Of a DNA stretch of 64,000 nt, positions 37,411 to 52,596 are shown piece by piece. How positions within the stretch are numbered: the stretch's first letter is position 1; every line of letters begins with the position of its first letter. Made by a program: the position numbers and the translations under genes. The stretch spans positions 3,039-67,038 of the forward strand of contig JAKAWR010000002.1 of the NCBI GenBank assembly GCA_021816935.1, in the 5' to 3' direction. A model generated the notes under the pieces. The model saw nothing but the letters and a program-made list of their open reading frames with translations. It had not been told where the DNA came from and did not search any database. The DNA is from Actinomycetes bacterium. Lineage in GTDB: Bacteria > Actinomycetota > Acidimicrobiia > Acidimicrobiales > JAMCPL01.

Positions 37411-38550
37411 TCACGGGTTACCGGAGGGCGCAACAGAACTGATCTGTGCGTCCAATGCCTTGATGATGTTCACGCTCAGCTGGACAGGGAACCTGCCCCC
37501 GAGTGCCACGAAGGTCAACAATACGACCACGCCCCGTGCTGCGAGAACCGCCGCCAGCCTGTCCAGGGAGAACTGGACCAGCCCCGACACCGGTGAGGAT
37601 CCTGCGGTACCAGGGGTGGTCGGCGTGGTCGGGTCCCCCGATATCGTCGAGGTGCTCGGGATCCCCGATGTGGTCGAGGTCGGGTTCCCGGGCGTAGTGG
37701 ATGCGGACCGGGTCGTCCCGGCGGCGGGCGTTCCCGCAGCGGACGATCCGGGTGCACCGGGCAGGTAACCGATCACCGACTCCAGCTCGACGAACGCATC
37801 TCCCATCCGGGGTATCGATACCCGGGTCCATGACTGGCCCAGCTTCGTAGATCCCATCTGACCCGCAGAGTTGAGCGACGCCTGAAGGCACGACAATCCG
37901 CGGGTGCTCCCGAGGGCATTCACGAACGCCACCGCTGCCTGCGGGGGGCCGGCGAGCCAGGCTTCCGTCTGCACCGCCACCTGCATCGGAGATGCTTCGC
38001 CGCCGCCGTTCGGGCTCGTCACAGTGGCAGCGGCTCCCCCCGTGAACCCCGGCATCGAAGATCCCTGGGGGTTGGTATAGCCGAACGCGGGGGACTGGAC
38101 TCCTCCGGGGAACGACACGCCCTTACTGCCGGCACACGAGGCGACTCCGGCGAGTTGGCTGCCGCCCGAGACCGCCGTCTCGGGAAGTGTCTTGGCCGCC
38201 GGTGCGATCACGCTCCACGTTGACGGCACCTCGCTCGACGACAGGATTGCAGCGGCGAGAAGGGGGTTGCTCGTCGTCGTGGCGGGCGGCGTCGCTGCAG
38301 GCTGCGACACCTTGCCATCACCCTTCTTACCTGCGCATTTTCCCGCCCGTAACGCCGGACTTCCGGAGGCGCACGCACGATTTCCCGGCTGTCCTCCCGC
38401 CGAGCGTCCTCCTGCGGAGTGTACTCCTGCCGGCGAACAGGCTGCCTCGATTATCAACAGGACCGTGCCCAGCAGCACCGCAACCACCGTGCCGCCACGG
38501 TGCTGCCGCCTGCGCACCATGAACGGCCTTCTGGCGTACGACGTCTCCAC
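37411..38550 (-). CDS. lipoprotein/secreted protein immediately downstream of the PilX-like giant (module A)
   Basis: N-terminal anchor ..VVAVLLGTVLLIIEAAC|SP. It lies 9 nt after the stop of 38560... Its positional counterpart is 47399..48238. Confidence 0.6.
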   Translation of the reverse strand: METSYARRPFMVRRRQHRGGTVVAVLLGTVLLIIEAACSPAGVHSAGGRSAGGQPGNRACASGSPALRAGKCAGKKGDGKVSQPAATPPATTTSNPLLAAAILSSSEVPSTWSVIAPAAKTLPETAVSGGSQLAGVASCAGSKGVSFPGGVQSPAFGYTNPQGSSMPGFTGGAAATVTSPNGGGEASPMQVAVQTEAWLAGPPQAAVAFVNALGSTRGLSCLQASLNSAGQMGSTKLGQSWTRVSIPRMGDAFVELESVIGYLPGAPGSSAAGTPAAGTTRSASTTPGNPTSTTSGIPSTSTISGDPTTPTTPGTAGSSPVSGLVQFSLDRLAAVLAARGVVVLLTFVALGGRFPVQLSVNIIKALDAQISSVAPSGNP

Positions 38551-38559: not shown

Positions 38560-41500
38560 CTAGCCGCCGGTCACTACCCGGCCGCTTGGAAGCTGGGTCA
38601 TCGTGGCGACGAACCAGGCCGTCGTCGGGCTCGATGCCCCCGCCCCGGCCGACTGCTGGAGGAGGTACGGTGCCGGATCGAACATCTCAGCCGGCGTGTA
38701 AGAGATGTGGACGTTCCTGAAGCCCGACGGCACGTAGCACGCCACCTCGCAACCCCACGCACTTCCGCTGTTCCATCCCTGGAAGAACTCGAAATGGCTC
38801 ATCAGCAGGCCCGCCGAGGCGAAACCGTCGTTGTATTGCTGGATGATCGAACCGACGAACGTGGCTGTGTCAAGCCCATGAACCATTCCGCTCGATTCGG
38901 TCGTGTTCGAGTACGGGAACTCGTTCCCGGACAGGAGGTTCTGGACGGCGACTGACCCGTTCTGGATCACCTGGGGTACCGACGTCGCAGCGCCGGCGCT
39001 GTCGTAAGTGCTCATCTCGACGTTCGGAAGGGAGTTGGACGCAACGATATCGGCATCGACCACTGGGTCGTACACCGCAGGGAACGAGTTGGACGGGCCA
39101 TGCACCCACGTGCTCTCCCAGGTCTGCAGGTTTCCCTCGTAGCCGGCCAGACCACTGCAGAAGCTGCTCAGATCGAGCATGGAGCAGAAATCGAGCAACG
39201 CCCCGCCGCCCAGAGTTCCGTAGGAGAAGTAGTACTCAGCCCACTGCCGGCTGCACGAATCCAGCGGGATGGGGAACGCGAACGCTATGCTGTACGGCGG
39301 TGTGCAGCTCGGAACCGGCGGAGGTGACGGCTTCTTGCTGTTGGCGCTCGGGTTGGTGGTGTAGAGGTTCATCGCCAGACTGTCCGAGGAGACGTGCCAA
39401 TCAGACGCACTGGGCGGGCTCCCGGCCCCGGCATCGAGCGGGCAGGCACCCGTGATGCCGATGATGGACTCGACCTGCGAGCCCAAGCCGCAGTAGTAGC
39501 CCTGCAGCTCGATGGTATAGATGTAGACGAAGATGTCGTAAACGCAATTCGCGAAGTTGGTGATGCTGCAGCTGAGATCGGGCGGGATGATGCTGTTCCC
39601 GGCAATGCTGGGCTCGTCAGGAGGTGTCGGGGCGGTCTTCGCAATCCCGCACCACGAAATACCGGAGCCGGTCACGGGATTGGGAATCGACGGGTTGATT
39701 GTGCAGTTGTTGTCATTCTGCCCGTTCACTACCGGATGGACGATCTCCACATTGCCCTCCGGGTAGTAGGTTCCCGAGCTGTCCTGGAAAGGCTCTCCAA
39801 GCGGGAGGTTCCCGCCTGGGGCCAGGCCGAGTGAGTCTGGGCAATTGTAGGGCACGGTCCTCCCGCCGTTCCCGGCGCAGGCATAGATGACATTACCGCT
39901 TATGTCGATATTGTTATCTGCCGCGATTGTCAAACTGCCGTTCAAAGTACCCTGTACTATCGCGTCACCCCAAGCGCAGTTATGGTGCTGGAGGGGCTCC
40001 CCCTCGTTGGACCCGGTGGAGAAGGGCAGCACGAAGCCTACGGGGAAGTTGGTGCATGACGAGTCGCCACCGGGCAGGTTGTGCACATAGATCACCCCAG
40101 CTGCCGGGAGGGGCATCGCCGTCCCGCTGTTCTCGCCGCTGCAGTTCGATGCATTGGCACCGGTCTGTCCCCACACCAACATGTCACCGCCCGCCTGCAG
40201 CTGGATAAAGGTCGGCCCGTAGAACTGGCAGCCTCCCGACTGCGCTGCAATTGCCGAGAGCTGACTGAAATCGGGCTCCGGAGGCGTCACGACGCCATTC
40301 AGCAAATGCCGGCCCGCAGTGGCGGGAGCCTTGCCGTTGCAGCCGGCAAGAAGGGTCACGTTATATGTGGTACCAAAGATCGGTCCGATGGAGAACCCTA
40401 CCGAGGGAAGGTTCGAGTAGATATACGGATACCACTTCGTGCCCGAGGGTGCCTGAAATTGCGATACTCCTGATGGGTACTTGTTGGCACTGCCGAAGGT
40501 CACGTCCGCTTTCGTCAAGTCAGGCTGACCGCAGACATAGAGTGCATCGTTCGTGTACACCTTCCCGGCAATCGTCGTCTTGAGACCGTAGTAACCGCTG
40601 CCGGCGTCGGTACCGCTGCCAGGTGGGTTGGCAGCCAGGCTCGGGTAGCCCGGAGTGTTCCCCCCCGTCGGCGTGCCGTACAGGTCATTGATGTTGCACA
40701 CGATAGGGAACGGACCGTGCGTCGGTATCGGAGCCAGAACGGCGCTAACAGCACTCAGTATCCCGTTCACGATGTCTTGGCCGATCGGGATGCCGAACAG
40801 GTTGATAGACGAAAGGCCGGCCAGGGACTTCCCGAGCATCTCCTGGACCATGCCGCTCGCCAGTATCTGGCCGATAGGGTTGGTGTCGTAGGCGTGATAG
40901 TTGCAGAAGAGCGCGCCGATCTTGATCAGACCCGTGGGACCGTTCCCGAGCAGCATGTTGATGATGGTTGACATGCTTGGAGGAAGGAGGCCGGAGCTCT
41001 TGGCAAAGTTGACTGCGTCCATCATGAGCTGGAACCACTCGCTGGACGCGTAAGTGTAGGGGCTTGTCGTCTCGTAGTTGGTGAAGAAGGCGTACGACAG
41101 AGCCGCATTCTGCAAGGCGACCTCCTCGGTCGAGTACTGCGTCCACGGAGAGAGACCGGCCCTGCCCACGACAATCAGGTACATCGTGCCCGTGGCCGGG
41201 TTCGACCCGGTCGACCCGGCCACCGCGGCCTGGGCGCCGTCAACCGTGTACGCATAGCCTTCGTTCAGGTTCGCGCTGGAGCCGCTCACAGCCGTCCATG
41301 TACCGTACATCGGCTCGGAATCGCTGCCGAGATCCGTCTTGGATATCGTGGGCAACGGCGGTGCCTGCGTTCCTCCCACATACTGGCCCAGCAATGAAGT
41401 CGCCGAGTTCACGCTGGTGCAGTAATTGGTCGGCAGGAAGAAGGCCGGGTCGCTCGCCGACGGTGACTTGCAAGTCACATCGTTGTACTTCACATAACCG

Positions 41501-41817
41501 GGGTCTTCCTGGAGGCGCGCCATATAAGCCGATACGCCGGATTCTGCAGCCACGGCGGCTGCCTTCTGGTTCTGGACCCGCAAGGTCAGAGGCACGTGCT
41601 GGCTGACGTTGGCGTACAGCACGGCAGGGATCAGTGCGAGCAGCAGCATGACCGCCATCACGGTAAGCATGGCCTGGCCGGCCGGTCCCCGCATCCGCAC
41701 GGCCGCAGCTTCCCGGCCTGCGCGACCGTCCCGGAATCTTCCCACCGCAGTTACCGGACCACCGGCCGGGTAGGTATCACGCATGTTTGGACAACTCCTT
41801 GCAGCCAAGAGCCTCAT
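38560..41817 (-). CDS. giant PilX/GspK-like minor-pilin-type protein (module A), about 1085 aa
   Basis: Hydrophobic N-terminus ..RGPAGQAMLTVMAVMLLLALIPAVLY with no Glu at +5, followed by ..NQKAAAVAAESGVSAYMARL (PilX_N-like). It is Cys-rich with beta-helix-like segments (GDAIVQGTLNGSLTIAADNNIDISGNVIYAC). The ATG at 41817 overlaps the upstream stop (TGATG); the track start is 41931. Confidence 0.72.
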   Translation of the reverse strand: MRLLAARSCPNMRDTYPAGGPVTAVGRFRDGRAGREAAAVRMRGPAGQAMLTVMAVMLLLALIPAVLYANVSQHVPLTLRVQNQKAAAVAAESGVSAYMARLQEDPGYVKYNDVTCKSPSASDPAFFLPTNYCTSVNSATSLLGQYVGGTQAPPLPTISKTDLGSDSEPMYGTWTAVSGSSANLNEGYAYTVDGAQAAVAGSTGSNPATGTMYLIVVGRAGLSPWTQYSTEEVALQNAALSYAFFTNYETTSPYTYASSEWFQLMMDAVNFAKSSGLLPPSMSTIINMLLGNGPTGLIKIGALFCNYHAYDTNPIGQILASGMVQEMLGKSLAGLSSINLFGIPIGQDIVNGILSAVSAVLAPIPTHGPFPIVCNINDLYGTPTGGNTPGYPSLAANPPGSGTDAGSGYYGLKTTIAGKVYTNDALYVCGQPDLTKADVTFGSANKYPSGVSQFQAPSGTKWYPYIYSNLPSVGFSIGPIFGTTYNVTLLAGCNGKAPATAGRHLLNGVVTPPEPDFSQLSAIAAQSGGCQFYGPTFIQLQAGGDMLVWGQTGANASNCSGENSGTAMPLPAAGVIYVHNLPGGDSSCTNFPVGFVLPFSTGSNEGEPLQHHNCAWGDAIVQGTLNGSLTIAADNNIDISGNVIYACAGNGGRTVPYNCPDSLGLAPGGNLPLGEPFQDSSGTYYPEGNVEIVHPVVNGQNDNNCTINPSIPNPVTGSGISWCGIAKTAPTPPDEPSIAGNSIIPPDLSCSITNFANCVYDIFVYIYTIELQGYYCGLGSQVESIIGITGACPLDAGAGSPPSASDWHVSSDSLAMNLYTTNPSANSKKPSPPPVPSCTPPYSIAFAFPIPLDSCSRQWAEYYFSYGTLGGGALLDFCSMLDLSSFCSGLAGYEGNLQTWESTWVHGPSNSFPAVYDPVVDADIVASNSLPNVEMSTYDSAGAATSVPQVIQNGSVAVQNLLSGNEFPYSNTTESSGMVHGLDTATFVGSIIQQYNDGFASAGLLMSHFEFFQGWNSGSAWGCEVACYVPSGFRNVHISYTPAEMFDPAPYLLQQSAGAGASSPTTAWFVATMTQLPSGRVVTGG

Positions 41818-42890
41818 CAGTACATCCCCGCGCCAAAACCGATCGCCAGTGCGACATTGTCCATGGTGACCTCCTGGTGAACCACTGTCGGCGGGCTCTT
41901 CGACACCGCCTCGTCGTTGCATACCTTGCATGCCAGGCTTCGTACCTCAACGCTGAAGTAGACACCAGCCACGCTGTCCGCGTCCGTTGTGCATGCAAGC
42001 CCGTCTCCGCCAGCCGCGGTTTGGCCGGCAAGTTGTGTAGAGGTAAAGGTGCAGTTGTCAGTGTTGCCGTCGGCATTGTTCCCGGCCGCATAACCGTCGA
42101 TATATCCACTGTTGTAAGTGCCTGGTGCCTGTAGGTCCTCATTTGCAAAGATCTGGGGACCTGAACAAGGCGCGAACTGGCCGGGCGAGCCGGCCGAGTC
42201 TCCACCTGTACAGGTCGCCGCCGGTGCCGGCCCGTACACTCCGAATATCTGCGCCAGAATCGCGAGGGGACTGGCGGGTGGCGTCACCGTGGCCGAAGTC
42301 AGCGTTCCACTCGACGTACCGCAAGCTGCAGCCCAGGTAGGGTTGGTGGCACGGCTGTCCGTGAACCAGTTGCCCGCCTCGATGAACGAGAACGGCACCA
42401 CGTCGGCTTCCAGCACGTAGTTCGCGTAGGCCGGGTTCGCTATCGTATGAAAGGCATCGGGCTTAGCGTAAACGTAAACCCATCCTGGCAGATGCTGGGC
42501 CCCGTCGGGCAGGCCCGAATAGAAGATCATCGCGTCCGGACACGCCAGGACCACCGCCGGGTCCCCCGTCATGCCCGGATCTCCTGCACCCTCGAGAACG
42601 GAGTTGAGAGCGTTCCCATCCGCTGCCGGCATCGGTGTGGCCGAGGTGATGAAATGCGCGAGCTCGCTCGTGAGCAAGGTGGCCTGGCTCTGCGCGTCCA
42701 GATCCCGCGATGTCGTGTAAAGCGCGTCCGTGAAGTTGGAAAGCGCAAGGAACACCATGGACATCAGGATCATAAAAATCAGGCTCGCCACCATCAGCTC
42801 GATCAGCGTGAAACCTTCGGCGGTCGTCCCGGCCAGCGGATTGCCCCGTGCCCGCTTGATCGCCCCTAATTGCACGACAACGATCCCCAT
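41817..42890 (-). CDS. prepilin-type N-terminal cleavage/methylation domain protein, PilW-like position (module A)
   Basis: ..KRARGNPLAGTTAEG|FTLIELMVASLIFMILMSMVFLAL is a class III signal with Glu+5. Start is ATG 42890 or GTG 42875; the track ORF starts at 42956. Confidence 0.75.
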   Translation of the reverse strand: MGIVVVQLGAIKRARGNPLAGTTAEGFTLIELMVASLIFMILMSMVFLALSNFTDALYTTSRDLDAQSQATLLTSELAHFITSATPMPAADGNALNSVLEGAGDPGMTGDPAVVLACPDAMIFYSGLPDGAQHLPGWVYVYAKPDAFHTIANPAYANYVLEADVVPFSFIEAGNWFTDSRATNPTWAAACGTSSGTLTSATVTPPASPLAILAQIFGVYGPAPAATCTGGDSAGSPGQFAPCSGPQIFANEDLQAPGTYNSGYIDGYAAGNNADGNTDNCTFTSTQLAGQTAAGGDGLACTTDADSVAGVYFSVEVRSLACKVCNDEAVSKSPPTVVHQEVTMDNVALAIGFGAGMY

Positions 42891-45800
42891 GACGAGCTGC
42901 CGGCCGGATTGCTCACGGTAACCGTACTGTTGGGCAGGCATATTCTCGCGTCCCATCCATATCCTGTGTAACTGACACTGGCAGTTATCCAGCTACTGTT
43001 GTGCCAGGTGATGCTCGCACTCTGACCTCCGATGGACGCCGAGACGTCGTTGAAGTTGCTGCCGTATATGTTGAAGGTCAGATTGAGGGTGCACCACCCC
43101 CAATACTTCACCCCGAACCACCCCACACCTCCGGCGGTGCAGTGGCTGTAGTTGGTCGGAGAAACGGAGCTTATCGACGGCGGGCTCAGGTAGGTGTAAG
43201 CCCAGTAGGCGTTGGACCCCTCGTCTGCCCAGTTCGTCGCCTGGACGTGCACCTGGTCGTAATTGCCGTTGGGCGACGGTGGAGCATGGACCGTGAAGTA
43301 CTCCTCGGAGCCGCCGACGCCGCCCTCACCGCATGGGCCTTTGAACGGCCACACCCAGACGGCAGTGCTGTAGCCGCTGATGCTGCTCGCCCAACCCGTC
43401 CCTCCGTCCCAGAACGCCACTTCTTGGATGTAGTCGAAGTTCGAGCCGCAGATTGTGACAGTGTTGCCGCCGCCGGCCGGGCCGTTCGTGGGCGAGATGT
43501 CGCTGATGTGCGGGGTGTTCGCGTAGGTGTACGTTACGGAGTTCGACGTGCCGACCGGGTTCGCGAGATACAGGGGGACCTGCTCAGGACCGTTCAGCGT
43601 GCTTGTGCATCCGAGGAGCAGGGAATGATAGTGCGCTGCAGGAGCGTTCGGGATGGTGAGCGTCTCGCCGAGACCGTTACCAGTCGAGGTTGTCCAGCCG
43701 GCCTGCACGGTAACGGCGTCACAACCAAAGTTGACGGTGGTCACGTGGTCGAAGTAGTTGCCGTACAGCGTGACGGGGTTCCCGCCGCCTACAGGCCCGC
43801 CGCAGTAGCCTGCCGCCGGCGACTTACAGGACGATATGTGGGGCAAGTGATCCCAGGTGAAGGTGGTGGTCGGCGGGTTGCACGACGAAGCCGACAGGGC
43901 ATTGTCGACCACCTGAACGCATGCGGAACCCCCATCCACACCAGCCGCATCGGGTGGCGACGGCGGGGACGGCGGGGACGCAGCTGTGATGTAGTTGTAG
44001 CTAAGTCCGTTGGTGAGATCGTGTCCGAGGTTCGCCAGGTCGGACGGGCAGGGACCGAGGTTCAACGGATCAAGGATGCTCCACGAGAACTTCTGGACCG
44101 AGAACGAGGCCGCCGGGTAGTAGGTTGCGCCGCTGTCAGCCGGGTAATCGAAGCCGACCTCGTAGGTCCCTCCCGGGTTCGATAGCGCGTTGCCTCCGGT
44201 CGGATTGAACCCGCCGCCGCAGATCGTGACCGTAGTACCACCGCCGATCGGCCCCGCCGCCGGGCTGATGGACGAAACGCTCGGGGGGAAGATGTAGAGG
44301 TAGTTGCAGGCGACATTCTGGCCGTTGAGGCTGAGATCCGAACCCCCGTTGATCGACCTGTCGTAGGTCGCCTCGTCCTGGCAGTTGCTCGTCGAGGTGC
44401 CGGTATCGAGGGGATCGGACGAGACGGTCTCGGTCTGGGTATTGCCGTTCAGCGTATAGCTATGCTGTCCCGTTACCGTGATAGATGCCCAGTTCACCGA
44501 GTTGCCCAAGAGGAGGTCCCATCCGGCGCAGAAGCCGAAGTTGGCAAGTGGGTCACACAGATACCAGTCCACCGGAGTCTTCGCGGTGATCTCCGTATCG
44601 GAATCGACGTTGAAGGACGCGTCGATCCCGGCGGGGAGCCCATTCGAGCCCGACGATCCGCACGCCTGCCCGTTGGTTATGTAGACGCACACCTCGACAT
44701 TCGTTGCTCCGCTGAAATTGAACCCGACGATCTCGAGTTGCGTGTTGCCCCACGGTGTACCCGACGGAACCTCGTAGCGACACCTCGTAGGCGAGCCCGG
44801 CGGCGGATTGCCGGGGGCGCACTGCGCGTTCGGGTCGCCCGAATCCTGGTAGGTGCACTGGGCGGCCGTCTGGCCGCCCTGGCAGGAATAGATGCGGTAG
44901 ATGTAGGGATTGACGTCGTAGTTGTAGGTAGCCGCATTGGAGGTGCCTGCCGGATTGCTCAGCGTCACGTGGGCATCACCGCCGGATGGATCCGGGGACG
45001 CCGGGGCAGTCACATCGACGGCTTGCCACGACCCGTTCAGGCCGGAGCAGTAGCTCGAATCGGATGGCGAGGCCTGCTGGACGGCTGCGGTGCTCGCCTC
45101 GCTCCCGTTCGAGTCGCTCGCCGGATCGAACGATGCCTGGTAGATCCCCGTGGTTCCCGGAGGGTTGAGGACACACAGGACGACAGTATTGCCGCCGTCG
45201 ACCGGCCCGAAGGCCGACATCGAAGCGGTAGACGGCTGATCCCACGGGGGGGCCGCGATGGCCTCGATCACCGGAGGCCCGCCCGGATTGCCGCACTGGG
45301 AAGGATCGAGCTCGCAAGGGTCGGTGATCTTTGACGGGAAAACCACCGTCAATATCTGCGAAAGACCGAGGTTGACGGCCTCGCTTACCTGGCTGGCACC
45401 GCTCGGGTCAGCCGTAACGGTATACGAGCCGGGGGCAAGCCCGACGAACGCAGCGCAGCCGCTGGGATTGGTGGCCGCGTCCGGGGGGGTTCCGCCCACA
45501 CTCACCGTGATGTTCGGTACCCCCACCCCGTTCGGGTTCTGCACCAGCACGTCGATCTGGGGCGGCGTCTCCAGGGTAGCCTGGCTGACCGATGCCTTCC
45601 GAGTACCGGAGCCCCACGTGACGGTGCTCACGGCCCGCAGCAGGAGCTGCGGATCGCCGCCCAGCCCGAAGCATTTGCTTGTCAAGGTCGCGCCGGCCAC
45701 GGCTCCGGTTGACGGCGAGATGCTACCGCCGGCGTCCTCCACCACCTCTACGGACTGAGAGAACGAATAGGGAGTGCCGGCCGCAACCTGGGTGCCGGCG

Positions 45801-46249
45801 GTGTTGCCGTTTCCCTGGCAGGCCGGCCAGCCGTCCCCGGCAGATGAGTAGCTTGTCGGGTGAGTCGTACCGGAATCCGAGGACTGCAGCTGCGCACCCG
45901 AGGAGAACGAAGGAAGAAAGACGCCCGTAGGGTGCGCCTTAATGCACGCTACCTGGGAACTTGCGAGGCTCGCACCCTCGACATGGGACTTGTTGACTGC
46001 CGCCCCGGCGAAGATCGACTCGATCAGGTATACCGCAGGCGTCAGTACCATGAGGAGGAGAGCCAGCGCCACGACGACTTCGATAAGGGTCATGCCCCGC
46101 TCTTCGCCGGCCACGGCAGCGAGCGCACGCGAACGATTCGACGTGATCCGGCGGCAGTCATGCGGCACCTGCAAACCCGCCCGATCCTGTTCGGCTGCGG
46201 GGTCACGCCGGCGCCTCCCCGACTCTTGCGCACCCCTCGTAGCATCCAT
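42866..46249 (-). CDS. giant prepilin-type protein, PilV-like position (module A), with CarboxypepD_reg-like and multiple IPT/TIG-like Ig domains
   Basis: ..AGEERG|MTLIEVVVALALLLMVL (Glu+5). GTG at 46114 would give a classic 7-aa leader (M)AGEERG. IPT-like motifs GPIGGGTTVTICGGGF, GPVGGGNPVTLYGNYF and GPAGGGNTVTICGSNF. ..GCAAFVGLAPGSYTVTA.. is CarboxypepD_reg-like. Confidence 0.75.
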   Translation of the reverse strand: MDATRGAQESGRRRRDPAAEQDRAGLQVPHDCRRITSNRSRALAAVAGEERGMTLIEVVVALALLLMVLTPAVYLIESIFAGAAVNKSHVEGASLASSQVACIKAHPTGVFLPSFSSGAQLQSSDSGTTHPTSYSSAGDGWPACQGNGNTAGTQVAAGTPYSFSQSVEVVEDAGGSISPSTGAVAGATLTSKCFGLGGDPQLLLRAVSTVTWGSGTRKASVSQATLETPPQIDVLVQNPNGVGVPNITVSVGGTPPDAATNPSGCAAFVGLAPGSYTVTADPSGASQVSEAVNLGLSQILTVVFPSKITDPCELDPSQCGNPGGPPVIEAIAAPPWDQPSTASMSAFGPVDGGNTVVLCVLNPPGTTGIYQASFDPASDSNGSEASTAAVQQASPSDSSYCSGLNGSWQAVDVTAPASPDPSGGDAHVTLSNPAGTSNAATYNYDVNPYIYRIYSCQGGQTAAQCTYQDSGDPNAQCAPGNPPPGSPTRCRYEVPSGTPWGNTQLEIVGFNFSGATNVEVCVYITNGQACGSSGSNGLPAGIDASFNVDSDTEITAKTPVDWYLCDPLANFGFCAGWDLLLGNSVNWASITVTGQHSYTLNGNTQTETVSSDPLDTGTSTSNCQDEATYDRSINGGSDLSLNGQNVACNYLYIFPPSVSSISPAAGPIGGGTTVTICGGGFNPTGGNALSNPGGTYEVGFDYPADSGATYYPAASFSVQKFSWSILDPLNLGPCPSDLANLGHDLTNGLSYNYITAASPPSPPSPPDAAGVDGGSACVQVVDNALSASSCNPPTTTFTWDHLPHISSCKSPAAGYCGGPVGGGNPVTLYGNYFDHVTTVNFGCDAVTVQAGWTTSTGNGLGETLTIPNAPAAHYHSLLLGCTSTLNGPEQVPLYLANPVGTSNSVTYTYANTPHISDISPTNGPAGGGNTVTICGSNFDYIQEVAFWDGGTGWASSISGYSTAVWVWPFKGPCGEGGVGGSEEYFTVHAPPSPNGNYDQVHVQATNWADEGSNAYWAYTYLSPPSISSVSPTNYSHCTAGGVGWFGVKYWGWCTLNLTFNIYGSNFNDVSASIGGQSASITWHNSSWITASVSYTGYGWDARICLPNSTVTVSNPAGSSSWGSLSCN

Positions 46250-46569: not shown

Positions 46570-47346
46570 GTGGATTACACAAGCAGCCGGGGGCATTCCC
46601 CTCGCCAAGACCTCGGGCCCTACCTCGGAGACCTGTCACATTGTCACGAGTTCCGGACCCGAAGATGGTCCGGGGGCGTACCATGCCATGACTCGCGTGA
46701 ACGCGGTGCTCCGATCGCTGCCGGCGCCGGCAAAGGCAAATTGGCCGCAGCATCATTAGCCGCAGCGGCAGCGACGATATCGTTGGCCTTGCTTGCGACC
46801 GCGTGCAGCCCGTCCCGTCCGAGCGCTGCACGTAGCTCCAAACCGGCCACCACGACTACGCGCTCCGCTGCGAGTAAGCCTGGACGGGCGTCTTCAACGT
46901 CAAGCACGACCTCGTCCTCCGGGCCGCGCACCCACACGACCGCGAGCAACACTACTGGCCCGGCTCGAACTGGTACCGGGGGACCCGCCAACTTCTGCTC
47001 CGCGATGGCTCAGTTCCTCTACTTTCCGAAGTCGGGGGCCGGTACGACCGGCGAGTTACTGCGCCTGGAACGCCAGAAGTCGAACGCGGTTGACGCCATG
47101 ATCGTGGATGCTCCCTCTAGCCTGCACGCCGATGCCACGAAGTTCTACGCGGCGGTGCACCCGCCGCTTGCCCAGATCATAGCGGTCCTGGTCACCATCC
47201 CATCTGCCTCCCCTTTGCCCGCACATCCTCCCGCGATCCTCACCAATGCCGGCCGCCAGTTCGAGTCCGCATACTCGAGTACCTCCTCGAAGGTCCTTAT
47301 CACCTGGTACGAGAGGCACTGCCCGCAAGCCAAGCAATCGGGGTAA
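46570..47346 (+). CDS. lipoprotein, paralogue by layout of 36812..37366
   Basis: Lipobox ..ISLALLATAC|SPS, a Thr/Ser linker, and Cys near both domain ends (..PANFCSAM.. ..WYERHCPQAK). The start is uncertain because the first ~50 aa of the track ORF are not signal-like. Confidence 0.55.
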   Translation: MDYTSSRGHSPRQDLGPYLGDLSHCHEFRTRRWSGGVPCHDSRERGAPIAAGAGKGKLAAASLAAAAATISLALLATACSPSRPSAARSSKPATTTTRSAASKPGRASSTSSTTSSSGPRTHTTASNTTGPARTGTGGPANFCSAMAQFLYFPKSGAGTTGELLRLERQKSNAVDAMIVDAPSSLHADATKFYAAVHPPLAQIIAVLVTIPSASPLPAHPPAILTNAGRQFESAYSSTSSKVLITWYERHCPQAKQSG

Positions 47347-47398: not shown

Positions 47399-48238
47399 CT
47401 ACTTAGATGCCCTTGCCGCCATATTCCCGACGACGGAAGACTCTACCTGCGTCGGGAACGTGCCGCCCACAGCAAAGAACGTACCCTCCACCACCTCGGA
47501 ACCGCTGCTGAAGAAGGCCATGTAGCCCTCGCCGACAAGTGGCGGGCTGGACATGACCACATCGAAGCTCGCCAGTTGCGAGGTGCCTTTCACCGCCAAG
47601 ACTTGGCGCGTCACTACTGCCTTCACCTTTCCGGTGGTCGTCTCCTCGACGCACTTGAGCCCCGCCGGGCTTCGAAGGTAGGCGATCACGCCGGAGGCGG
47701 CGGCGGCTGAACTCGCAAACGACACCGACGAATCGGCGACATAGAACGTCTCGGGAAGCCCCGCCTGTCCACCAGCCGGAGAGCCGCTACCTGGCGGGGT
47801 GCCGGTAGCACCGCCGGGAGAGCCCGCAACCGGAGCGGGGGGCGAGCCAGCCGAGGCGCTCTGAAGCGGATGGCCGTAGGAGGGGCCGGCCATTGCTATG
47901 TGAGCCGCCGCTATACAGGGAGGGAAGCCACTGAGACCGGAGGACTGTCCGGACTTCAAGAGCGACCACCCGGACGGGAAATCCGAGAGCCGCATGTTGA
48001 CGGACGCGGCAACCGCCTTCTGGGAAGGGGTGAGGGAGGAGTCGTGCGTTGTGGTGGGCACTGTATTGGACTGGTGAGGCGGCTGGGGCTTGCCGGGCCC
48101 GCCCGTACCGCTGAGCGGGGGCGTGGTCTTGTGATGCACGCTATTTCGCGACGGCGAGCTACCGCACCCTGCCGTCACTACCGCCGCCGCTAGCAACATC
48201 GCTGCCGGCTTCAGTGCTGCACGAGCGCGCGCTTGCAT
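47399..48238 (-). CDS. lipoprotein immediately downstream of the PilX-like giant (module B)
   Basis: Lipobox ..AAAVVTAGC|GSS. It lies 19 nt after the stop of 48258..51500. Counterpart of 37411..38550. Confidence 0.6.
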   Translation of the reverse strand: MQARARAALKPAAMLLAAAVVTAGCGSSPSRNSVHHKTTPPLSGTGGPGKPQPPHQSNTVPTTTHDSSLTPSQKAVAASVNMRLSDFPSGWSLLKSGQSSGLSGFPPCIAAAHIAMAGPSYGHPLQSASAGSPPAPVAGSPGGATGTPPGSGSPAGGQAGLPETFYVADSSVSFASSAAAASGVIAYLRSPAGLKCVEETTTGKVKAVVTRQVLAVKGTSQLASFDVVMSSPPLVGEGYMAFFSSGSEVVEGTFFAVGGTFPTQVESSVVGNMAARASK

Positions 48239-48257: not shown

Positions 48258-51200
48258 CTACGGCTGGAGAGAAGCTGGCACTGCAGTCTCTACATACGAC
48301 CCCGACATCTCGGTCCAGGGACTCCCGGCCGACGACAGCAAGTACGGCGGCGGGTTCAACAGCTCGGACGGGTCGTAACTGAAGTCAACCGTCTTGTAGC
48401 CGGACGGGACGAAACACGCGTACTGGCAACCCGAAGGATAGCCCCCTAGCAAGCCGCCGACCCCACCTGGGAAGAACTCGAAGTGGCTGAGCGACAACCC
48501 CGCGTTCTGGAGCGAGTTCGCGTACTGCTCCACCACTGAACCCACCGTCGTGAGGGTGCCAAGGCCGTGGGTACCGCCGCTGAAACTGCCCTGCCCGTAG
48601 GGGCAGAGGTTGACCGTGTTCCCGGTGGGCTGACTGCCGCAGTCCCAGTACGACGTCGTATCGCTGATCGGTGTGGCATAGACGTTGCCCACAGTCGGGT
48701 TCTGCAGGGTGAACGACCCGTTGACGATGCCAAGGTTCGGGTAGTCCATGGTCGAGCTCTCCGACGAGGAGGCGGACACCATCGGACTCGAGTTGGAGGC
48801 AAGAACCAGAGCGTCGACGGTCGGGTTGTACACCGACGAGAACGGGTTCACGGGGCCGTGCGTGAAGGTGGACTCGTACTTCTGCAGGACAGCCTCGTAA
48901 CCGCCGTCGCACGGCGATATGCCGAGCACGTTGCAGATGTCCTGGATGCCGGCACTGAGGCCCATCGCGCCGTAGTCGTAATAGTACGAGAGCCACTGGC
49001 CTCCACAGGAGTCCAGAATCCCGGCAATGAAGTCGTTCCAGGCCTGGCTCCAGTTGCCGCTGAGTATGGCCGTCCAGTTGAAGCTGAAAGAGACGTTCCA
49101 GTTGTTGCACGTGGGGTGCGCAGGTCGAGCGGGCGGAGCTGGTGCGTTGGTGTTCGTGTTCGCCCAGTTGTCCTCGAGACTCGTCACCGTGCACGTCGAC
49201 TCGCTCGCCGATGCACGCGTTACGGGACTTGAGATCGAGCCGTTACCATTCGAAGGCGCGTTGACCCCGCAGAAGTCCTTGTACTCCACACCGTATGCCC
49301 ATGTGGAAATATCGTACATCGCGTCCTCGAAACAGGTCCCCCAGGTGGCGACGTTCCAGGCCGCGCAGGATCCCGACGGGGCTGAAAGCGGCGACACGGG
49401 CGGCAACGGCACGGAATTGGGCTCTGGCGTGCCGCCTGTACCCGGATCGCCCTGTTCCCAGCCCGCACACGGATTGGTTGAGCCCCCCGGGTTCCAGCCC
49501 GCTCCGTTTACGACGCTGCTGGAAGCAGGGCAGTTGTTGTCGTTCTGGCTGGCGTCGACCGGATGCACGACGACGACGTTGCCCTGCGGGTAATACGTCC
49601 CGTTCGCATCGGTTGCCGGGTTCACGAGCTCGATGTTGCCACCGGGTGCAAGCCCCAGGGTGTCCGGGCAGCTCGCCGGCACGGGCGTACCTGGCGGGTT
49701 GGTTGATGCCGCGCAGGCGTAGATGAGGTTCCCCGTCACGACGATGTCATTGGACGCGCCGATAGTGAGCTTGCCTGACAGCGTCCCCTGTACGAGCGCG
49801 TCGCCCCAGAGGCAGTTGTGGTTCTGCAACAGGTTGTCGATCCCGTAGGGAAGGGATGAGACCCCGTATACATTGGGCACGATCGAACTCGACGAGAACG
49901 GGATGCAACTTCCCGTCGCGACATTGGACACGTATATCACCGAGGGCACAGCCGCTGATCCGCCGGTGGTCGGGCAGGAGCCTGCAGGCGTGTTCGGGCT
50001 CCAGGCCTGGAACGACGTGCCGTTGAGCTGGATGAACGTGGGTCCGAAGTAATGGCATCCCCCGGTGGCCGAGGCATTGACCCTGATCGCCTCGAAGTCC
50101 GGAACGGGAGGCGTCAGCGAGGTCACCGTTTTCGTAGCCGGCGGCGAGGTGACGTTCGCACACCCCGAGAGAATCGGTATGTCCCAGGTGTAGTCCTGCC
50201 ACGGTGTCGGGATCGACCCCGACCATGACCAGGCGAAGAGGTCGTTCCCAAGGCTGTGGTTCGGATTGTAGGACTGGGGCGGGCCAGTGGCCGAAGACGA
50301 GTACTGGGGAAGGATCCCCGCCTTGGAGCTCGTGAGCTCGATGGTGGCGCTGTTCAAGTTCGAGGTGGAGCCGCTCGGGCTGCAGGTGTAGAGCGAGTCG
50401 TTCGAGTATACCTTCCCACTCATGTTCGTGGTCATGCCGTAATAGCCGTTGTACATGTCATTGACGTTGCAGAGCAACGGGAAGGGACCATACGCCGGTC
50501 CGAGGAAGGTCTGGACGTCTGTTATCAGCGAATTAACCGCGCTCTCTATGCTGTTGTACATCTCCTGGCCGAGAGGGTAGCCGAAGATGCTGAACGACGC
50601 GAGGCCCTTCAGATACTGGGCCATCTCGTTGTCCACCATTGTAGTGAGTATCGGGCTGTCCAGCAGCGATAGGATCGTGTTCGACTGGTAGGCGTGGTAG
50701 TTGCACATGTAGAAGCCGAGCTTGACCGCTCCGACCGGCCCGTTGCCGAGGAACTCGCTCATCAGCGACTTCATCGAGGCAGGCAGGCTGCCTGACACGA
50801 GGGACACCACCCATTCTATGAAGGTGAACGCGGCGGCATTGGTGTACGCAAAGGGGCTGGAGGTCTCGTAATTCGTGAAATAAGAGTACGAGAGGGCGGG
50901 GTTATCGAAGTTCGACTCGACGGTGCGATAGCGGTAGTGTCCGGGCGAGCCGGCCCGTCCCGTGACCTTTGCCGTGATATACCCGCTGGAGGCATTCGAG
51001 GTATCGACCCTGAAAACATACGACTCATTCAGGCCACCTCCGGCAGAAGCCGACCCTGGTACGGGTGCCCAGCCGCCGTACGCGTTGTTCGGCCCCTTGT
51101 ACGTAGACGGGCAACTCGACGACGAACCGAAATAGAACCCGTCCCACTGACCGCTCGACGGCGCTGTACACTGGGCGTCGTTGTAGGACACGTTCGATAT

Positions 51201-51576: not shown

Positions 51577-52596
51577 TCAGAAGCCTCCTGCTCCGAAGCC
51601 TGACGCCGATGCGATGTTCTGCAATACGACCTGTTCGCTGACCGTCACGGGTGCGCCGGCGGCCGAAACCGCCCCCTGCACGTTCCGGAAGCGCTGCATC
51701 CTCACGTCGAAGCCGATCGCATCGATGTTCTGCGGGAAGTCTCCACTCGTCCCGCTGGTACCCGTCAGATTGCCGCCGGTGGCACCGGACCAGTAGGTGA
51801 AAAGCGGCAACGACGACAGCTCGGAACAACTCGGACAGCTGAACGTGTACGGATTGGGGGCGAACACCACATCGGGGACATCAGCCACGATCTTCGCGCT
51901 CGATCCCCAAGACGAAGGAAGGAAACCCGCACCGCCCGAGCAACTGGCCGGAGCCGCTGACGGCGGGCTGCTGCTCGGTCCGTTCGGGCTTACGTACGCG
52001 TGCAGGGTGTACTCCGTCCGCTCCAGAAGCGGCGTCGTCACCTGGTTCCATGTGCCCGGATTGGCCCAGCTACTCGTCACCACGTTTCCGCTGGAGTCCG
52101 TGAGGTACAGGTAGACCCAGGTCCCACCCAACGCTTCCGGCGGTTCCGAGTACAGGATCGCTTCGTAAGGACATGCCAGCCAAACCGCAGTACCCGGAGC
52201 TGTGCCCCAATTGATCACCGGTGGCGCCGGGACGACCGCGGCGCGCAGCAAAGGCGGGATCGACGAGAGGGCCTGCTCTCCGTCCCCGAGGCCGGTGAGC
52301 GTCCTCATGGACACGGCCTGGTTCTGGAGGTACGCCCCCGCAGTCACGAGAACCATGGCAATGACGATGAGGAAGATGAAGCTTGCCACCATCAGTTCTA
52401 TCAGGGTGAAACCGCCGTCGACGCCCGGGGAGCGCCCCCCGTCAGCACATACCTCCACCGGTTGCCCGGCACGCTGCAATAGGCGCCGGAAACGCGCATC
52501 GTGTGCTACTCGCTGCGGCAGCATGCCTCGCCTGCAAGGCAGGCTACTCGCTCGCGCGTCACCGGAAAGCACGCGTACGGATCCATCTGGACTCAC
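51577..52596 (-). CDS. prepilin-type N-terminal cleavage/methylation domain protein, PilW-like position (module B)
   Basis: ..SPGVDGG|FTLIELMVASFIFLIVIAMVLVTAG (Glu+5). A possible GTG start at 52458 would give a 16-aa leader. Confidence 0.72.
   Translation of the reverse strand: MSPDGSVRVLSGDARASSLPCRRGMLPQRVAHDARFRRLLQRAGQPVEVCADGGRSPGVDGGFTLIELMVASFIFLIVIAMVLVTAGAYLQNQAVSMRTLTGLGDGEQALSSIPPLLRAAVVPAPPVINWGTAPGTAVWLACPYEAILYSEPPEALGGTWVYLYLTDSSGNVVTSSWANPGTWNQVTTPLLERTEYTLHAYVSPNGPSSSPPSAAPASCSGGAGFLPSSWGSSAKIVADVPDVVFAPNPYTFSCPSCSELSSLPLFTYWSGATGGNLTGTSGTSGDFPQNIDAIGFDVRMQRFRNVQGAVSAAGAPVTVSEQVVLQNIASASGFGAGGF

What the first reader, a model, noticed from the sequence alone, without database searches (positions are those of the whole stretch)
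38560..41817. PilX/GspK-like giants: two ~1100-aa cysteine-rich paralogues with collinear conserved blocks and a beta-helix-like core
The proteins at 38560..41817 and 48258..51500 share long collinear blocks: ALSY-FTNYET-SP, CNYHAY, GPFP..CN.ND.Y, GPTFIQL, HNC.WGDA.VQGTL.G.LTI.A.N.I..GN.IYACA, CPD.LGLAPGGN and SHFEFF. Between the blocks the sequence has diverged. Many Cys residues sit at conserved positions, which implies an extracellular disulfide scaffold. The G-x-L-x-I-x-A-x-N-x-I-x-x-x-G-N-x-I segment looks like parallel beta-helix rungs. I do not recognise the ~1000-aa body as any named domain. A Glu5-less pseudopilin carrying a 1000-aa payload would sit at the very tip of a filament. By analogy it could fuse the PilX and PilY1 roles into one polypeptide.
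Basis: partly seen in the sequence, partly recalled or inferred. Interest (0 to 1): 0.75.

Follow-up and report, generated by a model that had tools for sequence, protein, structure and literature searches.

The report
Giant PilX-type pilus cap proteins
Two ~1,080-residue, cysteine-rich paralogues in an Acidimicrobiia-like actinobacterial genome are double-sized versions of the PilX-type subunit that caps type IV pili, each encoded in its own enlarged minor-pilin gene set and probably displayed at the pilus tip as a bulky adhesin or plug.

Summary
Across seven family members, 22 cysteines are invariant.

The PilX/GspK-like reading is supported. Both proteins have an invariant A-G|Q-A motif, a hydrophobic N-terminal helix and no Glu at +5. 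Each lies directly downstream of two Glu5-bearing prepilin genes.

The body is not an orphan. About half of it (515 of 1,085 residues) is homologous to a large Acidimicrobiia family of ~540-residue proteins (hhalign probability 100%, E 6.7e-54). Members of that family carry Pfam PilX_N and DUF4900. One member occupies the PilX position in a complete type IVa pilus gene cluster.

The giants are this protein plus about 570 residues of insertions, mainly a helical block and a Cys-rich block. Full-length giants are very rare: about 7 protein clusters, and 3 loci among 185,579 species genomes.

The beta-helix claim could not be verified. The AlphaFold model shows a beta-rich core, but Foldseek, Pfam and a repeat test found nothing.

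Precedents exist: Thermus ComZ and cyanobacterial PilX proteins carrying solenoid inserts. I rate this a new variant of a known kind, of moderate interest.

The parts
38560..41817 (-). Giant A: 1085-aa (or 1074-aa from ATG 41784) Glu5-less PilX-class minor pilin with a large Cys-rich body
   Evidence: ORF. Paralogue alignment E 8e-166. hhalign to the PilX_N/DUF4900 family: probability 100%, E 6.7e-54. AF2 model pTM 0.71.
41506..41685 (-). Giant A residues 45-104: invariant AG|QA motif, hydrophobic segment and one continuous 60-residue N-terminal helix (pilin alpha1-like), no Glu at +5
   Evidence: Alignment with invariant G47 Q48 A49. AF2 helix H45-104 at pLDDT about 90. Sub-threshold but full-length PilX_N hits in 4 of 5 family N-termini (giant B and three relatives; giant A itself gave none). 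GspK NCBIfam hit at E 0.15.
40696..41061 (-). Giant A residues 253-374: giant-specific helical insertion between the two conserved Cys of the CNYHAY...PFP.VCN loop
   Evidence: Coverage analysis against the short family. AF2 helices 260-361 at pLDDT about 85.
39730..40581 (-). Giant A residues 413-696: beta-rich core shared with the ~540-aa family. It contains the DUF4900-like G.VYsND.LY.CG motif, GPTFIQL, GVIYV.N, WGDA.VQGTL.G.LTIAA.N.I.I.GN and LGLAPGGN.
   Evidence: hhalign. HMMER best stretches at profile positions 460-640 in hundreds of proteins. AF2 short strands at pLDDT 80-95.
39097..39729 (-). Giant A residues 697-907: giant-specific Cys-rich insertion with 8 invariant Cys, modelled with low confidence
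   Evidence: pLDDT 31-56 over most of it.
38578..39096 (-). Giant A residues 908-1080: C-terminal region partly shared with the short family (VDA.I.ASNS, HGLGT.T..G, SHFEF, Y.P.E...P.PYLL, and a terminal strand 1068-1076)
48258..51500 (-). Giant B: 1080-aa paralogue of giant A
   Evidence: Shine-Dalgarno GGAGGTG upstream of ATG 51500.
41817..42956 (-). Module A PilW-position minor pilin (379 aa), G|FTLIE prepilin motif, conserved C-terminal GFGAGxY/F
   Evidence: Pfam N_methyl E 1e-5. TIGR02532. Orthologues directly upstream of every giant.
42866..46249 (-). Module A PilV-position giant modular pilin (prepilin motif G|MTLIE at about 46096; CarboxypepD_reg + several IPT/TIG domains)
   Evidence: Pfam. 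N-terminal 235 residues align with the 464-aa N_methyl+CarboxypepD_reg pilin of a canonical T4P cluster, E 2e-8.
37411..38550 (-). Module A downstream gene (379 aa; N-terminal TM/lipobox-like segment; low-complexity Pro/Thr/Ser regions)
   Evidence: Related to the gene downstream of the giant in L002, E 9e-10. No Pfam hit.
51577..52596 (-). Module B PilW-position minor pilin (339 aa), G|FTLIE motif, C-terminal GFGAGGF
   Evidence: Pfam N_methyl E 4.5e-6. 36% identical to the L005 orthologue, E 1.5e-52.
52854..56756 (+). Module B PilV-position giant modular pilin (1300 aa; G|MTLVE; CarboxypepD_reg + TIG; Cys/Asp-rich degenerate repeats in the C-terminal half), transcribed divergently
   Evidence: Pfam and NCBIfam type_IV_pilV E 2.9e-5. 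26% identity to the module A protein, E 3e-33.
47399..48238 (-). Module B downstream gene (279 aa) with a lipoprotein-type signal (..VTAGC)
   Evidence: Related to the genes downstream of the giants in L005, L006 and L008, E 1e-24 to 1e-8.

Best explanation
The two giants are enlarged members of the PilX/GspK class of minor pilins, the Glu5-less subunit that caps a type IV pilus.

Shown:
- They descend from the same ancestor as a widespread ~540-aa Acidimicrobiia protein. That protein occupies the PilX position in complete type IVa pilus clusters (PilB-PilT-PilC, pilins, PilX-like, prepilin peptidase, PilM/O).
- About 515 residues are shared with that protein: the N-terminal helix, a pilin-like sheet, a beta-rich core and the C-terminal strands. 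About 570 residues are insertions.
- Each giant sits in a conserved module: a PilV-position pilin carrying CarboxypepD_reg and TIG domains, then a PilW-position pilin, then the giant, then a small lipoprotein-like gene. The window carries two diverged copies of this module.

Inferred:
- The prepilin peptidase cuts after the invariant Gly of A-G|Q-A.
- The long hydrophobic helix packs with the helices of the PilW- and PilV-position partners into a GspI/J/K-like priming complex on the outer face of the membrane.
- Because the giant lacks Glu5 and has a very bulky body, it can only sit at the distal end.
- Major pilin then polymerises beneath it and pushes a disulfide-stabilised tip assembly of about 2,500-2,800 residues away from the cell.
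- At the tip the giant acts as plug and ligand-binding head, taking the PilY1/PilC role, which has no homologue here. The TIG stalk of the partner adds reach.
- The two modules would give pili with alternative tips, meaning different ligands or functions.
For: - Paralogy: E 8e-166.
- Cysteines and N-terminus: invariant AGQA motif, no Glu5, 22 invariant Cys.
- Neighbours: they carry canonical G|F/MTL(I/V)E motifs and Pfam N_methyl.
- Synteny: conserved in nine loci recovered with four relatives (L001-L009) and in L013.
- Exhaustive HMMER search with the family profile: 1,015 hits, mostly 520-620 aa, matching profile positions 30-230 and 460-640.
- Annotation of those proteins: precomputed PF14341 PilX_N and PF16241 DUF4900, with names such as 'Tfp pilus assembly protein PilX' and 'pilus assembly PilX N-terminal domain-containing protein' in Acidimicrobiia/Actinomycetota MAGs.
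- Profile-profile match: probability 100%, E 6.7e-54 over giant positions 45-659.
- Short-family member P0264 lies in a full T4aP cluster with the same local gene order.
- AF2 model: a single 60-residue N-terminal helix, four strands, then a beta-rich core.
- Literature precedent for bulky PilX-class cap pilins replacing PilY1: ComZ (PMC6561018), cyanobacterial PilX including an expanded HpsA-like subfamily (bioRxiv 10.64898/2026.02.12.705559), and modular pilins being tip-restricted (PMC8179133).
Against: - Neither giant reaches Pfam's PilX_N threshold. N-termini of giant B and three relatives score 11-15 bits against a cutoff of 25.5; giant A gave no PilX_N hit. The NCBIfam GspK hit, on giant A, has E 0.15.
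- hhalign against E. coli GspK aligns only the hydrophobic segment, at 5% probability.
- Foldseek of the model finds no pilin, GspK, ComZ or PilY1 structure.
- The window contains no major pilin, ATPase, platform protein or prepilin peptidase, so linkage to a functioning pilus in this genome is not shown.
- The module has three pilin-like genes, not the four of the classical FimU-PilVWX/GspHIJK set.
- It is unclear how a tip complex this large would cross the peptidoglycan of a monoderm.
- No ligand or activity can be deduced from the sequence.
Confidence: 0.72

Rival explanations
1. ComZ-like competence receptor. The giant caps a DNA-uptake pilus and its body binds extracellular DNA, as proposed for Thermus thermophilus ComZ. 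This shares the tip-cap mechanism of the best explanation but proposes DNA as the ligand.
For: The ~540-aa relatives are about the size of ComZ (554 aa). Like ComZ, they combine a GspK-like N-terminus with a large beta-rich body. In L016 the short relative lies in a cluster with a PilT-type ATPase, which is compatible with retraction.
Against: No sequence match to ComZ (PDB 6QVI) with either family profile at E up to 10. No Foldseek match to 6QVI. The giants are acidic overall, with about 33 Lys+Arg against 70 Asp+Glu in giant A. No competence genes (ComEA, ComEC, DprA) were seen among the window ORFs scanned against Pfam.
Confidence: 0.08
2. Cap of a non-pilus type IV filament. In this reading the filament is a short pseudopilus that drives secretion of polysaccharide or protein, like the cyanobacterial Hps system, whose HpsA is an expanded PilX-like protein. 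It would not be an adhesive pilus.
For: The PilV- and PilW-position neighbours give weak NCBIfam hits to the hormogonium polysaccharide pseudopilin HpsC (E 0.055-0.23). The preprint describes an expanded, HpsA-homologous PilX subfamily encoded in hps loci. The modules lie away from any assembly machinery in the window.
Against: The HpsC hits cover only the generic N-terminal motif and fall far below the cutoff (11-13 bits against 200). NCBIfam returned no HpsA model, only the weak GspK hit on giant A. No glycosyltransferase or polysaccharide export genes flank the modules. The short relatives sit in classical PilB/PilT/PilC/PilM/PilO clusters.
Confidence: 0.1
3. Signal-anchored surface protein that is not part of any filament. 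The N-terminal hydrophobic helix would simply tether a large disulfide-rich adhesin or enzyme to the membrane, and the position next to pilin genes would reflect co-regulation only.
For: Direct profile hits to PilX_N and GspK are below threshold. The leader before the Gly is unusually long and Arg-rich, at about 35-46 residues. No fold match to pilins.
Against: The G-Q-A motif at the start of the hydrophobic segment is invariant, and the helix following it is conserved (K85 A86 A87 A90 A91 G94), which a simple anchor would not require. Gene order with Glu5 pilins is strictly conserved in every locus. Homology to proteins in the PilX slot next to the prepilin peptidase gene is strong.
Confidence: 0.07
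4. Tip-displayed enzyme. The beta-rich core would be a beta-helix glycan lyase or hydrolase, as in phage tailspikes, delivered by the pilus to degrade a polymer.
For: The G.L.I.A.N.I...GN segment looks like beta-helix rungs. AF2 places three short consecutive strands there, at 619-645. Several related loci encode a separate NosD/Beta_helix protein within 10 kb.
Against: No Pfam Beta_helix, NosD or pectate-lyase hit in the giants. No Foldseek hit to any beta-helix enzyme or tailspike in PDB or BFVD. No significant internal repeats. No catalytic motif could be identified.
Confidence: 0.03

Closest known systems
Acidimicrobiia/Actinomycetota ~540-aa 'PilX N-terminal domain-containing' proteins (Pfam PF14341 PilX_N + PF16241 DUF4900); uncharacterised experimentally
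   Same: They are homologous to the giants (hhalign probability 100%, E 6.7e-54; HMMER E down to 1e-40). They share the G|xA(M/L)(I/L) Glu5-less N-terminus, the conserved alpha1 helix, the FTNYE-type motif, six to seven shared Cys, the GPT.I.L / GVIYVQN / GD..V.GTL.GQLTIAA.N.I.ITGN / LGL.A core, and the C-terminal Y.YD..L..PPYxL motif. They occupy the same gene position, after a CarboxypepD_reg pilin and a small pilin.
   Different: The giants are twice as long. They have about 570 extra residues in at least six insertions and 15-16 additional invariant Cys. Neither reaches the PilX_N or DUF4900 thresholds. Their modules lie away from the assembly genes, and their PilV- and PilW-position partners are also enlarged.
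Thermus thermophilus ComZ (PDB 6QVI; PMC6561018)
   Same: A GspK-like cap pilin that pilin-prediction tools do not recognise, carrying a very large beta-rich domain. It is proposed to be tip-only, binds the adjacent minor pilin, and at 554 aa is similar in size to the short relatives of the giants.
   Different: No detectable sequence similarity and no Foldseek similarity. ComZ is a DNA receptor in a diderm, where secretin passage limits size. The giants are twice as large, Cys-rich, and from a presumably monoderm lineage.
Cyanobacterial PilX proteins with inserted beta-solenoid, including the expanded PilX-EPS/HpsA subfamily (bioRxiv 10.64898/2026.02.12.705559)
   Same: PilX-class Glu5-less cap with a bulky inserted domain, proposed to replace the PilY1 plug. 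An expanded subfamily has extra undefined domains. There are multiple alternative minor-pilin sets per genome, and PilX and PilV subfamilies co-occur strictly.
   Different: Different phylum. NCBIfam gave no HpsA hit and only sub-threshold HpsC hits on the neighbours.
GspK (T2SS) / PilX (Pseudomonas T4aP) cap pseudopilins
   Same: Gly at -1, no Glu5, last gene of the minor-pilin set, and an inserted extra domain (an alpha-domain in GspK). The giants also carry a helical insertion early in the body.
   Different: GspK and PilX are about 200-330 aa. Sequence evidence is only marginal (GspK E 0.15; PilX_N E 0.02-0.5). The classical sets have four core minor pilins plus PilY1, whereas there are three pilin-like genes and no PilY1 here.
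Modular type IV pilins such as Streptococcus sanguinis PilB (vWA) and PilC (lectin) (PMC8179133)
   Same: A monoderm setting. A pilin module presents a bulky effector module that can only fit at the tip.
   Different: In those proteins the module is grafted onto the C-terminus of a Glu5-bearing pilin through a short linker. The largest modular pilin in that survey was 860 aa. The proteins here have 1,080-1,300 residues (the related loci hold modular pilins of 1,485 and 1,637 residues), and the giant's body appears interleaved with, not appended to, the conserved core.

Membership tests
PilX/GspK-class cap minor pilin (Pfam PF14341 PilX_N; NCBIfam NF037980 GspK) | Class III-type N-terminus: Gly at -1, about 20 hydrophobic residues forming the start of a long alpha1 helix, and no Glu at +5 | tested here: met
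   G47 Q48 A49 are invariant. Position +5 is T, M, I, L, L, T or I in the 7 members. AF2 gives one continuous helix over residues 45-104 at pLDDT about 90.
PilX/GspK-class cap minor pilin (Pfam PF14341 PilX_N; NCBIfam NF037980 GspK) | Profile match above the curated threshold | tested here: not met
   On full-length proteins there are no Pfam hits. On isolated N-termini, giant B and three relatives (4 of 5 tested) match PilX_N over its full length, but at 11-15 bits against a cutoff of 25.5; giant A gave no PilX_N hit. GspK gives 11.6 bits against 130. The link is met only transitively: homologous ~540-aa proteins carry precomputed PF14341.
PilX/GspK-class cap minor pilin (Pfam PF14341 PilX_N; NCBIfam NF037980 GspK) | Encoded as the last pilin gene of a minor-pilin set, after Glu5-bearing PilV- and PilW-type genes | tested here: met
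   Both window modules, loci L001-L009 and L013, and the canonical cluster L016.
PilX/GspK-class cap minor pilin (Pfam PF14341 PilX_N; NCBIfam NF037980 GspK) | Pilin fold (alpha1 packed on an antiparallel sheet) resembling solved GspK/PilX structures | tested here: inconclusive
   The AF2 secondary structure (helix, then strands 187-193, 211-220, 227-237, 242-246, and a terminal strand 1068-1076) is compatible with a pilin fold. Foldseek gave no match to any pilin, and coordinates could not be inspected.
PilX/GspK-class cap minor pilin (Pfam PF14341 PilX_N; NCBIfam NF037980 GspK) | Processed by the prepilin peptidase and incorporated at the filament tip | not testable with these tools
   Requires biochemistry or microscopy. 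No peptidase gene lies in the window.
Acidimicrobiia ~540-aa PilX_N + DUF4900 family | Significant collinear homology to the family profile | tested here: met
   hhalign probability 100%, E 6.7e-54, 413 aligned columns. hmmsearch with the giant profile recovers 459 proteins at E <= 1e-10.
Acidimicrobiia ~540-aa PilX_N + DUF4900 family | Pfam DUF4900 (PF16241) hit | tested here: not met
   No hit in the giants at E <= 0.1. The corresponding motif (G.VYsND.LY.CG) is nevertheless conserved. Several short members are themselves below threshold.
Acidimicrobiia ~540-aa PilX_N + DUF4900 family | Length of about 510-620 aa with a compact architecture | tested here: not met
   The giants have 998-1085 aa, and only 515 of giant A's 1085 residues align to the family.
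ComZ / cyanobacterial PilX type (pilin fold with an inserted triangular beta-solenoid) | [quoted passage not shown] | tested here: inconclusive
   AF2 shows a beta-rich body between the early strands and a final C-terminal strand. Foldseek gives no match to 6QVI or to ice-binding proteins. There is no repeat signal.
ComZ / cyanobacterial PilX type (pilin fold with an inserted triangular beta-solenoid) | Sequence relationship to ComZ | tested here: not met
   hmmsearch of profiles A1 and A3 against all PDB chain sequences gave 0 hits at E <= 10.
PilY1/PilC tip adhesin (Pfam PF05567) | C-terminal PilY1/PilC beta-propeller domain | tested here: not met
   No such Pfam hit in the giants or in any neighbour, and no Foldseek hit.
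Right-handed parallel beta-helix (Pfam PF13229/PF05048 clan) | Profile, fold or repeat evidence for stacked beta-helix rungs | tested here: not met
   No Pfam hit. No PDB or BFVD fold match. The top internal-repeat score of 16.4 lies within the shuffled distribution (mean 15.8, SD 2.3).
TadG/TadE-like Flp-pilus pseudopilins (Pfam PF13400) | Tad N-terminal domain and a Tad/Flp gene context | tested here: not met
   No PF13400 hit. The neighbours are N_methyl-type pilins, and the relatives' cluster is PilB/PilT/PilC/PilM/PilO. One JGI 'TadG' label appears to be a loose annotation.

The most novel reading that the evidence does not exclude
The giants, together with their enlarged TIG-rich PilV-position partners, would form a previously undescribed class of oversized type IV pilus tip organelle in monoderm Acidimicrobiia. 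It would hold about 2,500-2,800 residues in three subunits. The disulfide-rich head would adopt a fold with no solved structural relative and bind an environmental ligand, such as a mineral surface, a polymer or another cell. The two alternative heads would specify two functionally distinct pili assembled by one machine.
Probability: 0.25. Interest if true: 0.65.

Novelty: new variant of a known kind. Interest (0 to 1): 0.45.

Why it matters
How simple pilus filaments acquire diverse functions is increasingly explained by bulky subunits at the tip. These proteins push that principle to an extreme. A cap pilin of about 1,080 residues is paired with a modular pilin of 1,100-1,300 residues, both larger than the 860-residue maximum in a published survey of modular pilins (PMC8179133).

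They come from Acidimicrobiia-like Actinomycetota, a lineage whose type IV pili I found no studies of in the papers searched. The comparison with the ~540-residue relatives shows how such a protein can grow by insertions into a conserved core, and it maps which parts are core and which are payload.

The result also gives a working annotation (PilX-position cap pilin) to more than 1,000 protein clusters, many of them labelled hypothetical or DUF4900. It extends to a third phylum the idea that PilX-class proteins can replace PilY1.

The practical value is modest until a ligand or a structure is known.

Tried and rejected
- AlphaFold2 on the 7-sequence giant alignment failed (mean pLDDT 31). That model was discarded. 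A 127-sequence alignment that added the short family gave a usable model (pLDDT 67, pTM 0.71).
- Foldseek of that model against PDB and BFVD gave no match better than E 1.4. No fold assignment was possible, and coordinates could not be split into domains.
- Sequence-profile searches of PDB with the giant profile and the short-family profile gave nothing at E <= 10.
- hhalign of the N-terminal profile against E. coli K-12 GspK aligned only the hydrophobic segment, at 5% probability. This does not count as evidence.
- A profile self-comparison for beta-helix rung repeats in the short family was not above shuffled controls.
- The 508-aa protein near the giant in L002 was tested as a possible short-family paralogue. 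It is unrelated.
- The other ~1084-aa ORF in L013 shares only about 70 residues of the early pilin-like region with the giants (E 1e-4). It is a different payload, not a giant paralogue.
- A TadG/Flp reading and a PilY1 reading were rejected for lack of domain hits and because of the gene context.
- Tandem Repeats Finder found no DNA repeats in the repeat-like C-terminal half of the 1300-aa pilin, and Pfam found nothing there.
- A literature search for DUF4900 returned one unrelated paper.

Full report
**Observation**

The window has about 64% G+C. It carries two long minus-strand ORFs:
- A at 38560..41817, or up to 41931 as the maximal ORF.
- B at 48258..51500.

Their products align over essentially the whole length: 35% identity, 50% positives, E 8e-166.

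I aligned both with the five other full-length relatives in public data (alignment A1). Twenty-two Cys columns are invariant, out of 24-26 Cys per protein.

The start of A is uncertain. ATG 41817 overlaps the stop codon of the upstream gene. ATG 41784 has an AAGGAG Shine-Dalgarno and is the public gene call. The start of B at 51500 is backed by GGAGGTG 8 nt upstream.

**N-terminus**

All seven family members share an invariant A/S-G-Q-A motif. It is followed by about 20 hydrophobic residues and a conserved amphipathic stretch (VQNSKAALAAAQ.G...Y...L). The fifth residue after the Gly is never Glu.

Direct profile evidence is weak:
- No Pfam hit on the full proteins.
- NCBIfam GspK at E 0.15, on giant A only.
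- On isolated N-termini, giant B and three relatives (4 of 5 tested) match Pfam PilX_N over its full length but at only 11-15 bits, against a cutoff of 25.5; giant A's N-terminus gave no PilX_N hit.
- hhalign against E. coli GspK aligns only the hydrophobic segment.

**Wider family**

Word-indexed searches found only seven clusters of giants among 5.8 billion proteins. A scan of 185,579 species-representative genomes found three loci, in MAGs labelled Actinomycetota, Actinomycetes and Acidimicrobiales.

An exhaustive HMMER search with the family profile told a different story. It returned 1,015 proteins at E <= 1e-3 and 459 at E <= 1e-10. Nearly all are 520-620 residues long and match profile positions of about 30-230 and 460-640.

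Searching with one of them (P0018) returned 1,699 clusters from Acidimicrobiia, Acidimicrobiales and Actinomycetota MAGs. Many carry precomputed Pfam PilX_N (PF14341) and/or DUF4900 (PF16241). Their source names include 'Tfp pilus assembly protein PilX' and 'pilus assembly PilX N-terminal domain-containing protein'.

A profile-profile comparison of the giants with 32 of these proteins gives probability 100% and E 6.7e-54 over giant positions 45-659.

In a joint 127-sequence alignment, 515 of giant A's 1,085 residues are shared with the short family. The rest are insertions at residues 129-173, most of 258-412, 449-490, 647-685, 697-907 and 926-980. Six to seven Cys are shared with the short family, and 15-16 are specific to the giants.

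The core belongs to an annotated but uncharacterised PilX_N/DUF4900 family. The insertions have no named-domain match.

**Genomic context**

Upstream of each giant lies a 339-379-aa protein with a canonical G|FTLIE prepilin motif (Pfam N_methyl). Beyond that lies a 1,127- or 1,300-aa protein with G|MTL(I/V)E, a CarboxypepD_reg domain and IPT/TIG domains. Downstream lies a 279-379-aa protein with a lipoprotein-like N-terminus.

The partners in the two modules are themselves diverged paralogues: E 3e-33 for the TIG pilins and 9e-6 to 2e-10 for the smaller pilins.

The same neighbourhood recurs around every relative for which DNA was recovered (L001-L009 and L013).

The short-family member P0264 sits in a complete type IVa pilus cluster. 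Its gene order is:
1. MshEN + T2SSE ATPase
2. a second T2SSE ATPase
3. T2SSF platform protein
4. two small N_methyl pilins
5. a 464-aa N_methyl + CarboxypepD_reg pilin
6. a 224-aa N_methyl pilin
7. the 542-aa PilX_N protein
8. the A24 prepilin peptidase
9. PilM and PilO

The order CarboxypepD_reg pilin, small pilin, PilX-like protein is exactly that of the window's modules. The N-terminal 235 residues of the window's 1,127-aa pilin align with the 464-aa protein at E 2e-8. The giant modules are therefore scaled-up copies of the ordinary minor-pilin set of these bacteria.

The window itself contains no ATPase, platform protein, peptidase or major pilin.

**Structure**

AlphaFold2 on seven sequences failed (pLDDT 31). 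With the 127-sequence alignment the model reached mean pLDDT 67 and pTM 0.71. Its elements are:
- a single helix over residues 45-104, at pLDDT about 90;
- four strands between residues 187 and 246;
- a confidently modelled helical insertion at 253-374;
- a beta-rich core of short, closely spaced strands at 413-692, at pLDDT 80-95;
- a poorly modelled Cys-rich region at 701-873;
- further strands, ending with 1068-1076.

This fits a pilin module whose sheet is interrupted by a very large body, but I could not inspect coordinates.

Foldseek found no match better than E 1.4 in PDB or BFVD. It found no GspK, ComZ (6QVI), PilY1, ice-binding protein or beta-helix enzyme. Profile searches of PDB sequences were also empty. 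A profile self-comparison showed no rung-like repeats above shuffled controls. The beta-helix proposal therefore remains unverified.

**Mechanism**

Shown: homology to the PilX-slot protein of Acidimicrobiia type IVa pilus clusters, a Glu5-less class III-like N-terminus, conserved linkage to two Glu5 pilins, and duplication of the whole module.

Inferred from what is established for GspI/J/K and PilVWX priming complexes and for modular pilins (PMC6561018, PMC8179133, bioRxiv 10.64898/2026.02.12.705559):
1. The prepilin peptidase cleaves after Gly47.
2. The giant's alpha1 helix bundles with those of its two partners.
3. The giant occupies the distal position, because no subunit can dock above a Glu5-less, bulky cap.
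4. Major pilin is added beneath, so the disulfide-stabilised head is carried on the pilus tip.

No PilY1/PilC homologue was found here. The head probably supplies the plug and adhesin functions, as proposed for cyanobacterial PilX. The two modules would then give alternative tips.

Rival readings are given lower weight, for the reasons listed under rivals: a DNA receptor like ComZ, the cap of a secretion pseudopilus like Hps, a plain signal-anchored surface protein, and a tip-borne beta-helix enzyme.

**Comparison and novelty**

The kind of thing is known: a PilX/GspK-class cap pilin carrying a large inserted domain. What is new is the degree and manner of enlargement:
- twice the family norm, through multiple insertions;
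- 22 invariant Cys;
- co-enlargement of the partner pilins;
- the lineage;
- the absence of any structural neighbour for the modelled body.

I classify it as a new variant of a known kind, with interest 0.45. The most novel reading that remains open is a very large tip organelle with a head of novel fold. I give it a probability of about 0.25.

Noticed in passing
window 42866..46249 (-) and 52854..56756 (+); also L002 4448..8905 and L013 12983..17896: The PilV-position partners are themselves very large modular pilins, of 1,127, 1,300, 1,485 and 1,637 aa. Each has a prepilin motif, and all but the L013 protein (TIG hits only) also gave a CarboxypepD_reg hit; the IPT/TIG domains number up to 9 matched stretches in L013. 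All exceed the 860-aa maximum reported in a survey of modular pilins (PMC8179133). In the canonical cluster L016 the equivalent protein has only 464 aa.
   Followed up: partly
window about 54900..56756 (+), the C-terminal half of the 1300-aa pilin: This region has many degenerate protein-level repeats of the type (I/V)NWTDNACDAAGNPGW...D.D...ADG/TG.GD.TD, rich in Asp, Asn and Cys. They recall calcium-binding thrombospondin type-3-like repeats. Pfam finds nothing there, and there is no DNA-level tandem repeat.
   Followed up: partly
window 41817..41850 and 51577..51610 (C-termini of the PilW-position pilins); the same in L001, L002, L005, L008 and L013: All PilW-position pilins next to the giants end in a conserved motif, N(V/I)a....G(F/E/Q)G(A/S)G.(Y/F/L), at or within one residue of the C-terminus. 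I do not know such a terminal motif from classical PilW/GspJ proteins. It might be a contact site for the giant.
   Followed up: no
window 37411..38550 (-), 47399..48238 (-); L002 13189..14127, L005 4684..5598, L008 4545..5366: A small protein of 270-380 aa follows the giant in most loci. It has a lipoprotein-like or TM N-terminus and a conserved C-terminal segment (..F.A.GG.FP.Q.E...). The proteins are weakly but significantly related to each other (E 1e-24 to 9e-10). No Pfam family matches. It may be a fourth component of the module.
   Followed up: partly
window 51368..51500: The public gene call for giant B (P0003, 1036 aa) starts at Met45. That removes the invariant AGQA motif and the Arg-rich leader. 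The ATG at 51500 has a strong GGAGGTG Shine-Dalgarno. Several short-family entries (e.g. P0022) look similarly truncated, which would hide the PilX_N signature from annotation pipelines.
   Followed up: partly
L013 6..3260 (+): A different protein of more than 1,084 aa, cut by the end of the locus, lies 7 kb from the giant in MAG FK3.bin57. It shares only the early pilin-like segment (W..SG...N.EY.Y.VD...G..Y...TGRAG) with the giants (E 1e-4) and has an unrelated body. This suggests the same cap scaffold carrying other payloads.
   Followed up: partly
L001 9837..11741 (-), L013 19375..21297 (-), L015 6073..7956 (+): A secreted NosD/Beta_helix-domain protein of 627-640 aa lies within 10 kb of the PilX-like gene in three unrelated loci. 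The window ORFs scanned against Pfam showed no equivalent. This may be coincidence or a functional partner.
   Followed up: no
window 7645..9858 (+) and 9916..12336 (-): Two large ORFs of 737 and 806 aa have no significant Pfam family. The only hits are sub-threshold, to DUF2510 and DUF2844. They are not part of the pilin modules.
   Followed up: no
window 56944..58020 (+): A 358-aa protein just downstream of the 1300-aa pilin has a sub-threshold match to the NCBIfam SCO4651 lipoprotein family (E 1.8e-11; 44 bits against a cutoff of 65). The window also holds another lipoprotein-like ORF between the two modules, at 46570..47346.
   Followed up: no
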